NCBI GenBank assembly: GCA_048887225.1
Contig: JBHLJY010000004.1
Coordinates: 64,001-128,000 of the forward strand
Length of the DNA stretch: 64,000 nucleotides
Reading direction: 5' to 3'
DNA from: Candidatus Hodarchaeota archaeon
GTDB taxonomy: Archaea; Asgardarchaeota; Lokiarchaeia; Sigyniarchaeales; SOKP01
This document shows, in pieces, positions 1 to 3,355 of the stretch (position 1 is its first letter; every line of letters begins with the position of its first letter). The position numbers were made by a program, and so were the translations under genes. The notes beneath the pieces were generated by a model that was not told the DNA's origin, did no database searches, and saw only the letters and a program-made list of their open reading frames with translations.

Positions 1-415
1 TTACTTGGCCCGTCGGTAATCCTGTATCTCCTGCTGGAACCCATATATCTACTGGAGTGATTTCATCGGGCTTAGCTGGTACCATCCATTCTGTTTCGTT
101 AAAAATCTTTTTTAATTCAAACATATTAGTGTTTGTAAAAACGAGACTTGATTGTCCTGGAATATTTCTTGCAAACTCGTCTAGATTAGGCTTTTTCGAT
201 TCCTTTTGATATTTCTCAATGGCTCGGATTTGTAAGTTTTTCTTTGACATTCGAATTTCCGCTTTTCCTCTTAAAATATTGCGCGTGTCTTGAATTTGCC
301 TATCGTTAATGTGAGCCATTTCTATGACTGCCACATTTTTATATTTCTTAAATAAATCTACTAAATAATCAATCTCGTCTAATTTCCATTGCGGAATTTG
401 TTTTTTCGAAATCAT
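1..415 (-). CDS. rpl10: 50S ribosomal protein L10/P0 (uL10), 5' part; runs off the window edge
   Basis: Manual translation from ATG at 415 gives MISKKQIPQWKLDEIDYL...IRMSKKNL...WMVPAKP...VPAGDTGLPTGQV, a typical archaeal P0 N-terminus; lies directly downstream of rpl1. Confidence 0.93.
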   Translation of the reverse strand, partial: MISKKQIPQWKLDEIDYLVDLFKKYKNVAVIEMAHINDRQIQDTRNILRGKAEIRMSKKNLQIRAIEKYQKESKKPNLDEFARNIPGQSSLVFTNTNMFELKKIFNETEWMVPAKPDEITPVDIWVPAGDTGLPTGQV

Positions 416-419
416 TTTT

Positions 420-1148
420 TCACACACCTACATTTTTTAAGTATACCTCATCAATTTTAATGGGTTTACCCATAGTAGTTTTTATAAACATCGATCTGAA
501 ATTATTATATTTGTGAGGCATTTGGTCTGCGACATAATCAACAACAGCTTTCATGTTTTCTAAAATTTTATCCATTTCCATTGACTTTTTTCCTATCTTT
601 ACCTGTAAAACTGGATGCTTTTTAACAATAATTCTTATAATTTTTTTATATCTCTCAATGGCTATTTTAAGATCACTTACTGATGAGATGATTCCATAAC
701 CACTCGGGAATGGTTTAGGCATTTTCCCTGTGGGTCCCAAGAATCTGGCAAGAAAACGTGCGACATCTCGCATATTTTTGTCTTCAACAATGAAGAAATC
801 ATATTTTTTTACAAATTTCTTTTTGTACTTTTTTTCTTCTCGATCTAAAGCCGCTAATCCATCTGCATTAAGTGTATCTAGTCCTAAATTTTTAGCTTCT
901 AATAATATATCATCAGAAGCAATAACACAGACTTTTGGGTTATCATCAGTTATTACATCGTTAGGCAATATCAACTCTTTGTCAATTCTTTGTTTCGGAT
1001 CATTTAAATTAATATCTTTTATATTTATAATCAAATCAATTGTTTCGTCGAAGTTTCGCACTTTATCTTTGAATCCTTCTCGCTTTATAACCGAAAAATC
1101 AATCGCAGCGTTTAAAGACCTTTTTAATAATTTATCGTCAACTTTCAT
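420..1148 (-). CDS. rpl1: 50S ribosomal protein L1 (uL1)
   Basis: RNFDETIDL, LGPTGKMPKP and KTTMGKPI motifs; L11-L1-L10 gene order. Confidence 0.96.
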   Translation of the reverse strand: MKVDDKLLKRSLNAAIDFSVIKREGFKDKVRNFDETIDLIINIKDINLNDPKQRIDKELILPNDVITDDNPKVCVIASDDILLEAKNLGLDTLNADGLAALDREEKKYKKKFVKKYDFFIVEDKNMRDVARFLARFLGPTGKMPKPFPSGYGIISSVSDLKIAIERYKKIIRIIVKKHPVLQVKIGKKSMEMDKILENMKAVVDYVADQMPHKYNNFRSMFIKTTMGKPIKIDEVYLKNVGV

Positions 1149-1151
1149 TTT

Positions 1152-1713
1152 TTACAAATCCTCCTTTATTTTATCATCGTATTCTCCATTATTAATTCTC
1201 TCTTGAATGATCCTAGGGTCCTCTCCTTCAACAGTTAGGCCTACAGATAAGGCGGTTCCTAATACTGTTTTAACACCAGTTTTAAATGTTTTATCTAAAA
1301 AGATGTCTTTTTTAGCATTTGCGACCGAAATTATTTGGTCAAGAGTTAAATTACCAATTTTATCCTCTCCTGGATTTGAAGAACCCTTCTCAACTCCAAC
1401 TTCTTTCAATAATAATGAAGCTGTAGAAGGAGTTTCTACAAAAATTTCAAATTGTTTTGTCTCAGGATCACACTCAATTCTCACTGGAACAGTTAATCCT
1501 TTAAACACCATTGTTTTTTCGTTTACAGCATCAATGACATCCTTAATATTGATACCCGTTGGACCTTAAGCCAATAATTCGAAATGAATTATTTACAGCC
1601 GGTCCAATTGGAGGTCCTCCTGAAGCATTAGGGGTAATTTTCGAAGTGAAAGTTTATTATACACTCCCTCCAGTCACAAGGGCCTTTACTACAACCTTTC
1701 CTTTTTTACTCAT
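1152..1713 (-). CDS. rpl11: 50S ribosomal protein L11 (uL11), intron-split; exons 1713-1664, 1627-1595, 1566-1152; spliced product 165 aa
   Basis: The ORF track shows only the last 119 aa. Removing 1628-1663 and 1567-1594 gives MSKKGKVVVKALVTGGSASGGPPIGPAVGPTGINIKDVIDAVNEKTMVFKGLTVPVRI..., the conserved L11 N-terminus; 498 nt = 166 codons. Confidence 0.93.
1567..1594 (-). other. BHB-type intron 2 in rpl11 mRNA (28 nt, canonical)
   Basis: UUGGACC-GGCU-[GU^A]-AAUAAUUC-loop AUUUC-GAAUUAUU-GGCU-[UA^A]-GGUCCAA: 7-bp exon stem, 4-bp helix with 2 G-U pairs, 8-bp intron stem; excision restores the frame (GCT GTA GGT CCA, A-V-G-P). Confidence 0.9.
1628..1663 (-). other. BHB-type intron 1 in rpl11 mRNA (36 nt, relaxed exon-side helix)
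   Basis: Minus strand reads AGGG-[AG^U]-GUA...UAC-CCCU-[AA^U]. Central 4-bp helix AGGG/CCCU with two 3-nt bulges; carries in-frame TAA TAA; excision gives GGG AGT GCT (G-S-A). Confidence 0.82.
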
Positions 1714-1917
1714 CGCTATCAAATTATTATCTTAAATTTGTTTCAAAATATATCATTAAAGGTTTAGGAACGCATCGTTTTTTCAATAGAATTTATTTCA
1801 ATATCTCAATTATATTGAAACCGCTATAATTTGCGTCCTAAGTCTATAAGAAAATATTTTGAACTTAGTGTGTTGGAAAGTGAATTAGAATTAAAAAAGT
1901 TTATTAAAAGATATCGT

Positions 1918-2103
1918 TTAAAATCTGCAACATAATCTTCGACCATAGTCGAGATTGCTCTTCAAATATTCATTCTCCAGTATTTTCATAACTTTATCAT
2001 ACTCGAGATTTAACTTTTTTACAATATCTTCTATCTCAATACCAGGTGTAGATATCAATCTAAAAATCTCTTTTTTTACATCTTCATTAACTTCTTCAGT
2101 CAT
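1918..2103 (-). CDS. Small hypothetical protein, HTH-like, ending RRLCCRF
   Basis: 61-aa ORF co-oriented between the Fe-S protein and rpl11. Confidence 0.55.
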   Translation of the reverse strand: MTEEVNEDVKKEIFRLISTPGIEIEDIVKKLNLEYDKVMKILENEYLKSNLDYGRRLCCRF

Positions 2104-2163
2104 TGTTTTTTAGATAATAATTTCTATATTTTAATATTTAGCTTAATTTTTAAAAATAAAATT

Positions 2164-3228
2164 TTATTTCGAACTTTTTCTTTTACCTTCAATTATAGCC
2201 TTCCCTAATTCTAGTACTCTGTCGAAGGGTTCCTCACCATCTTTCCTTAGTTGTAGAATTATTGCTTCTTCTGGACAAACGTTAGCACATAATCCACACC
2301 CGAGGCATAGATCTGTATTAACTATTGCGAAATCTTCCAATTGTATTGCTTCAACTGGGCATCGTTCTACGCAATTACCACATCCAACACATGTTTCTCG
2401 ATCTATTATGGATTCGAACATTGCGTTTAGAAATCTATGTTTATCTAGTCCTTTTTGCGTTATTCCTTTCATAGATGCACAACAACAAGGACAGCAATTA
2501 CATATATTTGACAAGTGTTTGGAATTAACTCCTGCATGAATCAGGCCTGCATTGTCTGCTTCTTCAATAATATTTATAGCCTCCTCAGCAGAAATTTCCC
2601 TACCGACCCCATTTTCAATGTAATATTCAGCTGCAACCCCGAAGGATAAACAGTTTTCTATTGGACCATCGCAACCTTCACCGTTTAATTTTGCTTCTTT
2701 ACGGCAAATACATTCGTATACTGCTATTTTTCTGGCATTTTTAATACTCTCTTTGAGTTTATGGTAAGGGTACAGAACAGTATGAGCTTCTATTGTTTCT
2801 TCAACAGGAAGCACCTTGAATCCCGGTACATTACTTGCCCCCATTTCATTCATATATGCTAAATCATAATATTTTTTAAACATTTTTGCGAGCTCTTCAT
2901 CTAGTTTTCCAACGGAGTACTCATATAATCCAACCATAAACGGTGCTGAATTGTAAAGTGTCTTCCCATCTCGTCTAACACGGAAAATGAGTCCCTTTCT
3001 TGACATTGAATCTAATTTTTCTTCTACTTCTTTTATTTCCGATCCTACTCGTCTAGCAATTCGAGATGCTTTTTCGGGAATAGGAGTTAGGAATATTGCT
3101 ATTTTTGCTTCTTCTTCCGTAAAAAGTCTTTTCAAGATCTTGATTTCAATCCCGTTTGATGTTTTAGGATAGCCTAATGGGAACCGATCTAAAAATTCTC
3201 TTAACTTTAAGTAAGCCTTTTCAGACAT
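2164..3228 (-). CDS. 4Fe-4S dicluster-domain protein with N-terminal winged-helix region
   Basis: CICR, ICNCCPCCC and two CxxCxxCxxxCP motifs. Confidence 0.85.
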   Translation of the reverse strand: MSEKAYLKLREFLDRFPLGYPKTSNGIEIKILKRLFTEEEAKIAIFLTPIPEKASRIARRVGSEIKEVEEKLDSMSRKGLIFRVRRDGKTLYNSAPFMVGLYEYSVGKLDEELAKMFKKYYDLAYMNEMGASNVPGFKVLPVEETIEAHTVLYPYHKLKESIKNARKIAVYECICRKEAKLNGEGCDGPIENCLSFGVAAEYYIENGVGREISAEEAINIIEEADNAGLIHAGVNSKHLSNICNCCPCCCASMKGITQKGLDKHRFLNAMFESIIDRETCVGCGNCVERCPVEAIQLEDFAIVNTDLCLGCGLCANVCPEEAIILQLRKDGEEPFDRVLELGKAIIEGKRKSSK

Positions 3229-3355
3229 ATACTTTAACCTCAGTGCTTATTTTGAAATATTGAAAAATAAATAAGAATTTTATTTTTATCATCAATAGGA
3301 CTCTTATTAATTATGAAAAAACCATAGGTTAATTAAATTTATATTACTTATAGAT

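What the first reader, a model, noticed from the sequence alone, without database searches (positions are those of the whole stretch)
1595..1663. rpl11 intron 1 with relaxed BHB and a 33-nt micro-exon: possible ordered or regulated splicing
The 36-nt insertion is in frame but contains TAA TAA. The central helix AGGG/CCCU and the intron-side GUA/UAC pairing are intact, but the exon-side helix begins with a G.G mismatch, so the motif is relaxed and would need a broad-specificity endonuclease. Only 33 nt (1595-1627) separate the two introns. Exon 1 UGGAGG can alternatively pair with CCUCCA in the micro-exon, competing with the BHB helix. Inference: splicing of intron 1 may be rate-limiting or conformation-dependent, giving a control point at the head of a ribosomal-protein operon.
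Basis: partly seen in the sequence, partly recalled or inferred. Interest (0 to 1): 0.8.

Follow-up and report, generated by a model that had tools for sequence, protein, structure and literature searches.

The report
Two tRNA-type introns in Asgard rpl11
The only gene for ribosomal protein uL11 in this Asgard (Loki-type) archaeon is split by two tiny inserts shaped like tRNA introns, so its message must almost certainly be cut and rejoined by the tRNA-splicing enzymes; I found no support for the idea that the first intron is a regulatory switch.

Summary
There is a 36-nt in-frame insert with UAA UAA (1663-1628), a 33-nt micro-exon (1627-1595) and a 28-nt frameshifting insert (1594-1567). The AGGG/CCCU helix, the G·G mismatch and the UGGAGG/CCUCCA alternative pairing are all present.

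Across 92 related Lokiarchaeial rpl11 loci, such inserts come and go at four fixed sites, and removing them always restores the conserved protein. Their best bulge-helix-bulge (BHB) register matches the protein-required boundaries in 37 of 47 cases (about 8 expected by chance). Helices covary.

Intron 1's relaxed shape is conserved in all 14 lineages that carry it. It is backed by a displaced exon-exon helix held in place by synonymous codon choice.

The genome encodes a two-subunit EndA (the tRNA-splicing endonuclease) with the broad-specificity loop, and the RtcB ligase.

The regulated or ordered-splicing idea is not supported:
- the competing helix is a by-product of Gly-Gly and Pro-Pro codons;
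- the two motifs share no nucleotides;
- close relatives lack intron 1.

No RNA data exist for this organism. This scan has already reported rpl11 mini-introns in other Asgard genomes.

The parts
1664..1713 (-). rpl11 (uL11) exon 1, 50 nt, ATG at 1713-1711, encodes MSKKGKVVVKALVTGG + first 2 nt of Ser
   Evidence: matches the N-termini of intron-less orthologues
1628..1663 (-). intron 1, 36 nt, in frame, in-frame UAA UAA (1659-1654); relaxed BHB (site a)
   Evidence: same site occupied in 14 distinct lineages, absent in 56
1595..1627 (-). 33-nt micro-exon encoding (S)ASGGPPIGPAV
   Evidence: amino-acid sequence invariant across family orthologues
1567..1594 (-). intron 2, 28 nt, frameshifting; textbook hBHBh' (site c): h 7 bp, H 4 bp, h' 8 bp, bulges GU|A and UA|A
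   Evidence: z = -4.16, 0 of 200 shuffles fold as well
1152..1566 (-). rpl11 exon 3 (137 codons + stop), Ribosomal_L11_N (part) and Ribosomal_L11 domains
1666..1669 (-). intron 1 central helix H, exon strand AGGG; pairs with CCCU 1630-1633
   Evidence: paired 14/14 at all four positions, with A-U / U-A / U-G covariation at position 1
1630..1633 (-). intron 1 central helix H, intron strand CCCU
1674..1681 (-). 5' strand (CCUU.UGA) of the displaced exon-exon helix of intron 1
   Evidence: 6-7 of 7 pairs in 14/14 intron-bearing genes against a mean of 4.1 in 56 others
1616..1623 (-). 3' strand (UCA.GGAG, in the micro-exon) of the displaced exon-exon helix of intron 1
1667..1672 (-).
   Evidence: real complementarity but not associated with intron presence
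1609..1614 (-). CCUCCA, 3' strand of the alternative helix (Pro-Pro codons)
1559..1607 (-). whole BHB motif of intron 2 (h 1607-1601/1565-1559; H 1600-1597/1572-1569; h' 1593-1586/1580-1573)
420..1148 (-). rpl1 (uL1), 3 nt downstream of the rpl11 stop; followed by rpl10 (2-427): same operon

Best explanation
Both inserts are archaeal bulge-helix-bulge (BHB) introns in the rpl11 pre-mRNA.

Proposed steps:
1. The rpl11-rpl1-rpl10 transcript folds.
2. The heterotetrameric (alpha-beta)2 splicing endonuclease EndA cuts after the second nucleotide of each bulge: after G1664 and A1628 for intron 1, and after U1595 and A1567 for intron 2.
3. The RtcB ligase joins exon 1, the 33-nt micro-exon and exon 3 into a 165-codon uL11 message.

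Intron 2 is a textbook hBHBh' motif. Intron 1 is a conserved relaxed form:
- It has a perfect 4-bp central helix, a normal 5' bulge and a short intron helix.
- On the exon side, the AAU bulge is followed by a G·G mismatch and a small internal loop.
- Beyond that loop lies a 7-bp exon 1/micro-exon helix. This helix probably positions the 3' cut and holds the exons together for ligation.

The two motifs use separate nucleotides, so splicing is most likely constitutive and unordered.

Shown here: the anatomy, the comparative support, the covariation and the presence of the enzyme genes. Inferred: that cleavage and ligation actually occur, and which enzymes carry them out.
For: - Removing the inserts at BHB-predicted sites gives TGG-S-ASGGPPIGPAV-GPTGIN, identical to intron-less orthologues.
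- rpl11 is single-copy in a 98% complete genome. The micro-exon peptide is invariant across the family.
- Among 92 loci, a BHB-blind protein-guided search finds 48 intron-less, 30 with one insert, 8 with two and 2 with three. The inserts sit at four fixed sites.
- The best BHB register equals the protein-required register in 37 of 47 insertions, against 7.7 expected.
- At site a, the central helix pairs in 14/14 loci with A-U, U-A and U-G covariation against a synonymous Gly base. The first two pairs of the intron helix h' pair in 14/14 (the first is an invariant G-C, the second covaries). The 3' bulge is AAU in 14/14.
- The displaced exon helix forms 6-7 of 7 pairs in 14/14 intron-bearing genes, against a mean of 4.1 in 56 genes without the intron (p about 2e-8, uncorrected).
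- Wobble bases inside the helices are fixed, while unpaired wobble bases vary. Val is GUG in 14/14 against 9/56. Ser is UCA in 14/14 against 32/56. Gly is GGA in 14/14 against 25/56.
- At site c, the exon helix forms 7/7 pairs in 5/5 intron-bearing genes, against 2/65 others.
- The intron 2 fold has z = -4.16.
- EndA alpha-like and beta-like paralogues and RtcB are present.
- The tRNA-intron load is heavy: 15 of 32 ARAGORN calls carry an intron.
- Independent metagenome contigs carry both inserts.
Against: - No RNA evidence exists: no RNA run holds the locus.
- The intron 1 region folds no better than shuffled sequence (z = +0.26).
- In longer contexts the nearest-neighbour model prefers the alternative UGGAGG/CCUCCA helix.
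- The comparative statistics are not corrected for shared ancestry. Intron-bearing alleles could share flanking codons by descent or by recombination. However, the unpaired wobble positions do vary.
- The substrate range of Asgard EndA has not been measured.
Confidence: 0.8

Rival explanations
1. Intron 1 is a regulatory checkpoint. The exon 1/micro-exon helix UGGAGG/CCUCCA competes with the BHB helix, so that intron 1 removal is slow, conformation-dependent or ordered after intron 2. This would tune uL11 output, and through translational coupling the downstream operon.
For: - The two helices are mutually exclusive.
- In a 266-nt context RNAfold gives the alternative helix P about 0.9 and the BHB central helix about 0.
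- The intron 1 region has no thermodynamic excess stability.
- The intron lies 50 nt from the start codon of the first gene of a tight operon.
Against: - The alternative helix is no more complementary in intron 1 genes (6/6 in 3 of 14) than in genes without it (15 of 56), and its wobble bases vary freely.
- The prediction flips with the folding window (0.86 in a local context) and in the 97%-identical relative (0.94).
- In-silico removal of intron 2 does not change the intron 1 prediction.
- The two motifs share no nucleotides.
- Intron 1 is missing in same-genus relatives and is gained or lost many times.
- Selection visibly maintains the productive exon helix instead.
Confidence: 0.1
2. The inserts are not removed from the RNA. 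Either the ribosome bypasses them (programmed hopping or frameshifting), or the gene is a pseudogene or produces an N-terminally truncated uL11 from Met1511.
For: - No RNA evidence for splicing exists.
- A 119-aa ORF from ATG 1511 is present.
Against: - There are no matched take-off and landing codons.
- Two separate bypasses of 36 and 28 nt would be needed.
- The boundaries fit BHB geometry far above chance, and exon wobble bases covary with intron bases. Bypassing does not predict either.
- The gene is single-copy and essential.
- Exon 1 and the micro-exon keep a perfectly conserved peptide in many lineages, so they are translated.
- The conserved N-terminal domain would be lost in a truncated protein.
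Confidence: 0.04
3. The inserts are assembly or binning artefacts, or strain-level insertions present only in a minority of cells.
For: The genome is a metagenome-assembled genome in 49 contigs.
Against: - Contigs from two other studies span both inserts with only point differences.
- An independent MAG (L002 = L031) has both inserts with compensated substitutions.
- Dozens of other MAGs carry inserts at the same sites.
Confidence: 0.01

Closest known systems
BHB intron in the cbf5 (pseudouridine synthase) pre-mRNA of Crenarchaeota (Watanabe 2002; Yoshinari 2006; Yokobori 2009, PMC2738675)
   Same: - A short protein-coding-gene intron with a bulge-helix-bulge motif.
- Found in archaea that have a hetero-oligomeric EndA.
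- Patchy gain and loss among relatives.
   Different: - cbf5 has a single intron; here there are two in one gene, and up to three in relatives, leaving micro-exons of 21-33 nt.
- The host is an Asgard archaeon.
- The gene encodes a core ribosomal protein.
- There are four recurrent sites within about 55 nt, and turnover is far faster.
- Splicing of cbf5 was shown experimentally; here it is inferred.
BHB intron in the 5'UTR of Haloferax volcanii HVO_1309 mRNA (PMC7714728)
   Same: An mRNA substrate of the tRNA splicing endonuclease outside tRNA and rRNA.
   Different: - The Haloferax intron lies in an untranslated region.
- It is cut by a homodimeric alpha'2 enzyme.
- Its removal is not needed to restore a reading frame.
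Non-canonical and multiple tRNA introns of Thermoproteales and Asgard archaea (PMC11291895; bioRxiv 10.64898/2026.10.13.758758; PMC5829648)
   Same: - The same motif family, including relaxed HBh'/BHL forms.
- The same (alpha-beta)2 EndA with the L1/Crenarchaea-specific loop.
- Repeated gains.
- Persistence where the exon can supply half of the motif.
   Different: - The host RNA is an mRNA with no tRNA body to hold the exon halves together.
- Here exon pairing is provided by coding sequence, through synonymous codon choice.
HAC1/XBP1 unconventional mRNA splicing in eukaryotes (Ire1 cut; ligation by RtcB for XBP1, by the tRNA ligase Rlg1/Trl1 for yeast HAC1)
   Same: - Non-spliceosomal, protein-catalysed removal of a short mRNA intron, with the exons rejoined by a tRNA-type ligase.
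- The intron changes the reading frame.
   Different: - The nuclease is different (Ire1, not EndA).
- The recognition motif is different (twin stem-loops).
- That system is a proven stress-regulated switch; no sign of regulation was found here.

Membership tests
Archaeal BHB (EndA/RtcB-spliced) intron | 4-bp central helix flanked by two 3-nt bulges on opposite strands, with cuts after bulge nucleotide 2 | tested here: met
   Intron 2 is an exact hBHBh' motif. Intron 1 has a 4/4 central helix and a canonical 5' bulge AG|U. Its 3' bulge AA|U is followed by a G·G mismatch, so it is the relaxed form.
Archaeal BHB (EndA/RtcB-spliced) intron | Flanking helices h (exon-exon) and h' (intron) | tested here: met
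   Intron 2: h 7 bp, h' 8 bp. Intron 1: h' 3 bp in this genome (up to about 10 bp in relatives). Its h is displaced by a small internal loop but forms 7 pairs, and it is conserved in 14/14 carriers.
Archaeal BHB (EndA/RtcB-spliced) intron | Precise excision restores the conserved gene product; orthologues exist without the insert | tested here: met
Archaeal BHB (EndA/RtcB-spliced) intron | Compensatory changes maintain the helices | tested here: met
   Site a: central-helix position 1 is A-U 7, U-A 4, U-G 3, and h' position 2 covaries. Site c: exon-helix positions 3 and 6 swap A-U and U-A.
Archaeal BHB (EndA/RtcB-spliced) intron | Host encodes a splicing endonuclease able to cut relaxed motifs, and an RtcB ligase | tested here: met
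   - There are two PF01974 paralogues.
- The alpha-like one keeps Tyr/His/Lys and the KPR loop and aligns to the A. pernix alpha subunit (3p1z_B) at E = 5e-35.
- The second has Ser at the catalytic His.
- RtcB is present.
- Enzyme activity was not tested.
Archaeal BHB (EndA/RtcB-spliced) intron | Spliced RNA and/or circular intron observed | not testable with these tools
   No RNA run holds the locus.
   Full complementarity occurs in 3/14 genes with the intron and 15/56 without it. The wobble bases of the helix vary.
   Intron 1 is absent in same-genus genomes G009, G006, G004, G001 and G007. The tree needs at least 5 changes for site a.
   This needs binding or probing experiments.

The most novel reading that the evidence does not exclude
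The first ~110 nt of rpl11 are a hotspot where one related family of mini-introns repeatedly arrives, moves between four nearby sites and is lost.
- The introns share a C(RNNUC)G pentaloop hairpin. The two introns in this window share the 11-mer UUCANUUCGAA.
- Exon synonymous sites co-evolve to supply the exon half of the splicing motif.

This would be an active system of intron gain and loss with exon adaptation in protein-coding genes of the closest prokaryotic relatives of eukaryotes. It might spread by reversal of the EndA/RtcB reaction or by allele recombination.

In relatives with introns at sites a and b, the two motifs overlap in the micro-exon. There, a forced order of splicing could really exist.
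Probability: 0.3. Interest if true: 0.85.

Novelty: new variant of a known kind. Interest (0 to 1): 0.62.

Why it matters
In the papers I could search, protein-spliced (BHB) introns in archaeal protein-coding genes are documented essentially only for crenarchaeal cbf5. Reviews treat mRNA introns as nearly absent from archaea.

Here an essential ribosomal protein gene in an Asgard archaeon needs two splicing events around a 33-nt micro-exon. The comparison with relatives shows three things:
- fast intron turnover at four fixed sites;
- coding sequence shaped by selection for a splicing structure;
- a relaxed motif that is stably maintained.

This gives a concrete, testable system for asking how introns colonise protein genes in the lineage nearest to eukaryotes.

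It also matters for annotation. Gene callers report uL11 in these genomes as truncated or broken.

Tried and rejected
1. RNA evidence. The look-up of sequencing runs listed no RNA holder for window 1-3300, so splicing could not be observed. Only DNA contigs could be laid.

2. Genome-wide census of BHB motif plus ORF merging. With loose criteria, 18,287 candidates passed against 18,175 decoys. With tighter criteria there was still no excess over the background rate set by ordinary gene boundaries. A 30% GC genome makes BHB-like pairings too common for this approach, so I give no count of mRNA introns for this genome.

3. Census seeded on the C(NNNUC)G hairpin loop. Only 2 ORF-merging loci were found, no more than with control loops. 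The rtcB intron has a different loop. The loop motif is therefore specific to the rpl11 introns and not general in this genome.

4. My first strict BHB scorer, which required contiguous helices, failed on the window's own intron 1 and on many relatives. Two scripts timed out before a memoised search worked.

5. Thermodynamic folding as a test of helix competition. Results depend on the folding window and temperature and differ between near-identical relatives. I do not use them as evidence for or against regulation beyond showing that the signal is not robust.

6. Rfam. There was no match in the window at gathering thresholds, nor at E <= 1 in 1700-1960.

7. The 'joints' that skip 228-320 nt are low-depth contigs of other organisms that match exon 3 and the conserved upstream element. 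They are not intron-less alleles.

8. The careful tree search did not finish, so the quick IQ-TREE tree was used.

Full report
**What is there**

The window is 30% GC. Positions 2-1713 of the minus strand carry a tight rpl11-rpl1-rpl10 operon. rpl11 does not read through. From ATG 1713 the frame gives MSKKGKVVVKALVTGGSV and then two UAA codons. The conserved continuation ASGGPPIGPAV follows 36 nt later in the same frame. GPTGINIKDV... follows in another frame after a further 28 nt.

The layout is:
- exon 1, 1713-1664;
- insert 1, 1663-1628;
- micro-exon, 1627-1595;
- insert 2, 1594-1567;
- exon 3, 1566-1152.

These are the in-frame UAA UAA, AGGG/CCCU, GUA/UAC, the G1670·G1626 mismatch, the 33-nt spacing, and UGGAGG complementary to CCUCCA.

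**Organism and reality of the DNA**

The genome is a 3.27-Mb, 98% complete assembly with one rpl11. Its closest public relatives are Promethearchaeota (Lokiarchaeia-type Asgard) MAGs from sediments. Contigs from two other studies cover 1121-1900 and 1372-1900 with only point differences and no gaps inside either insert. The inserts are therefore genomic and not assembly errors.

**Comparative anatomy**

I collected 102 rpl11 loci from relatives. A search that uses only the conserved peptide, with no RNA structure, resolved 88 of the 92 loci with a complete 5' region. It found 48 uninterrupted, 30 with one insert, 8 with two and 2 with three.

The 47 non-redundant inserts fall, with one exception (a single 76-79-nt call in L056), at four fixed positions within about 55 nt of coding sequence:
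- site a: TGGS|ASGG, the window's intron 1;
- site b: GGPPI|GPAV;
- site c: GPAV|GPTG, the window's intron 2;
- site d: GIN|IKDV.

I scored canonical BHB geometry (cut after bulge nucleotide 2, 4-bp central helix) in 25 registers around each insert. The best register was one that the protein allows in 37 of 47 cases, against 7.7 expected by chance.

**Intron 2**

This is a textbook hBHBh' motif: a 7-bp exon helix, bulge GU|A, central helix GGCU/GGCU, bulge UA|A and an 8-bp intron stem. It folds far better than shuffled sequence (z = -4.16, 0 of 200 shuffles). Its exon helix is complete (7/7) in all 5 lineages that carry the intron, against 2 of 65 that do not. Two exon wobble pairs swap A-U and U-A.

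**Intron 1**

In all 14 distinct lineages with a site-a intron:
- the central helix pairs at all four positions;
- its first pair covaries (A-U 7, U-A 4, U-G 3) between a synonymous Gly third base in the exon and the intron;
- the 3' bulge is AAU;
- the next exon pair is G·G.

The local fold showed what my contiguous-helix scorer had missed. The exon-side helix exists but is displaced. CCUU.UGA (1681-1674) pairs with UCA.GGAG (1623-1616) in the micro-exon, beyond a small internal loop that holds the 3' cut site.

This helix forms 6-7 of 7 pairs in 14/14 intron-bearing genes, against a mean of 4.1 in 56 genes without the intron (Mann-Whitney p about 2e-8; Fisher p about 2e-7 for 6 or more pairs; neither corrected for ancestry).

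The wobble bases inside the helices are fixed:
- Val GUG, 14/14 against 9/56;
- Ser UCA, 14/14 against 32/56;
- Gly GGA, 14/14 against 25/56;
- Gly GGG in the central helix, 14/14 against 10/56.

Neighbouring unpaired wobble bases (Thr, Ala, both Pro) vary. Hitchhiking alone should not produce that contrast. It indicates selection on coding sequence to supply the exon half of a splicing motif. Because an mRNA has no tRNA body, this helix is also the likely tether that keeps exon 1 and the 33-nt micro-exon together for ligation. That last step is inference.

**Machinery**

The genome has two about 201-aa proteins with the tRNA-intron endonuclease domain.
- One aligns over its full length to the catalytic alpha subunit of the Aeropyrum pernix heterotetramer (3p1z_B, E = 5e-35). 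It keeps the Tyr, His and Lys that align to the published M. jannaschii catalytic triad Y115/H125/K156. It also keeps the Crenarchaea-specific loop with its Lys-Pro-Arg.
- The other has Ser where the catalytic His should be.

This fits the (alpha-beta)2 type with the L1 loop reported for Asgard archaea, which is linked to broad substrate range (PMC5829648, PMC2724299, PMC3241643). RtcB is present. ARAGORN finds only 32 tRNA genes, 15 of them with an intron. This is consistent with the heavy tRNA-intron load described for some other Asgard lineages (PMC11291895; bioRxiv 10.64898/2026.10.13.758758).

**The regulatory or ordered-splicing idea**

Four tests were possible.
1. Is the competing helix conserved where the intron is? 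No. It is fully complementary in 3 of 14 intron-1 genes and in 15 of 56 others. At least 4 of its 6 pairs are forced by the GG/CC of Gly-Gly and Pro-Pro codons.
2. Does thermodynamics robustly favour the competitor? No.
   - In a 266-nt context the competitor wins, with P about 0.9 and the central helix at about 0.
   - In a local context the central helix reaches 0.86.
   - In the 97%-identical relative L002 it reaches 0.94.
   - All four sites, including the textbook one, scatter from 0 to 0.99.
3. Are the two introns coupled? Removing either one in silico leaves the prediction for the other unchanged. The exon nucleotides used by the two motifs do not overlap.
4. Is intron 1 retained? No. 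Same-genus genomes have intron 2 only, a site-b intron only, or none.

On a quick maximum-likelihood tree of uL11+uL1, the intron patterns need at least 27 changes. Near-identical sisters differ: L043 has a+d while L045 has b, and L050 has none while L067 has b. All 9 loci outside the family, and the two deepest branches inside it, have none.

A control point that relatives gain and lose freely, and whose proposed competitor is not under selection, is unlikely. It is not excluded, because no RNA data exist.

**Other readings rejected**

- Ribosomal bypassing would need two hops without matched take-off and landing codons. It does not predict BHB geometry or exon-intron covariation.
- A pseudogene or a truncated protein does not fit a single-copy essential gene whose exon 1 and micro-exon keep an invariant peptide across many lineages.
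- An assembly artefact is excluded and by independent MAGs.

**What is known**

In the library I could search, BHB introns in archaeal mRNAs are reported for cbf5 in Crenarchaeota (PMC2738675, and the references it cites) and for one Haloferax 5'UTR (PMC7714728). PMC7714728 states that cbf5 was the only earlier example. I found no paper on such introns in Asgard protein genes.

This scan has already followed up rpl11 mini-introns in other Asgard genomes, and other mini-introns in this same genome. The core phenomenon is therefore not new to the scan.
- the four-site hotspot with rapid turnover;
- the displaced exon helix maintained by synonymous codon choice;
- the negative result on regulation.

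**Verdict**

- Observation: confirmed.
- Identity: two EndA/RtcB-type introns, one canonical and one conserved-relaxed, most likely removed constitutively and independently (confidence 0.8).
- Novelty: a new variant of a known kind.

Noticed in passing
window 1790-1860 (upstream of rpl11, either strand): There is a strongly conserved element upstream of rpl11. It is an inverted repeat, CGGUUUCAAUAU...AUAUUGAAA, enclosed by AGGACGC/GCGUUCCU. It is present upstream of rpl11 in most family members. It draws extra contig depth from many organisms in the metagenomes, about 157 against about 41 in neighbouring bins. It has no Rfam match. It could be a leader, an operator or a small RNA.
   Followed up: partly
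G000 C13:33313-34649 (L105/L106), outside the window: The RNA ligase gene rtcB is itself split at Pfam RtcB model position 47 by a 29-nt insert with BHB geometry: UUGG/CCAA central helix and an 8-bp stem. The enzyme that ligates spliced exons would need splicing of its own mRNA.
   Followed up: partly
G000 C4:215764-215799 (+), outside the window: A candidate 36-nt BHB insert lies in an acyl-CoA dehydrogenase-like gene: GGCU au|a ... AGCU au|g. Its removal joins two 50-codon open stretches.
   Followed up: no
I only read the sequence and did not analyse it.
   Followed up: no
L082 and L100 (relatives), rpl11 5' region: Two relatives carry three introns in rpl11 (sites a, b, d) with micro-exons of 21 and 29 nt. 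The exon helices of sites a and b would use the same 4 micro-exon nucleotides, so the two motifs cannot form at once there. Sites b and c would share 8 nt, and that combination is never seen. A forced order of splicing may exist in those genomes.
   Followed up: partly
window 1581-1591 and 1643-1653 (-); rpl11 introns in L001-L102: - Hairpins of rpl11 introns at all four sites share a 5-nt loop closed by C-G, C(RNNUC)G.
- The two introns in this window share UUCANUUCGAA.
- That 11-mer occurs only 17 times in 3.27 Mb, and two of the 17 copies lie 62 nt apart inside these introns.
- This suggests the introns are related to each other.
   Followed up: partly
whole genome G000: ARAGORN finds only 32 tRNA genes in a 98% complete genome, 15 of them with an intron. 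Several amino acids are unrepresented. Many tRNA genes are probably hidden by non-canonical or multiple introns.
   Followed up: no
window 1686 (-), exon 1: Related strains in two metagenomes and in L002 carry one extra codon (3 nt, TAC on the + strand) in exon 1 of rpl11 (table 4). This is an in-frame length polymorphism in the Lys/Val-rich N-terminus.
   Followed up: no
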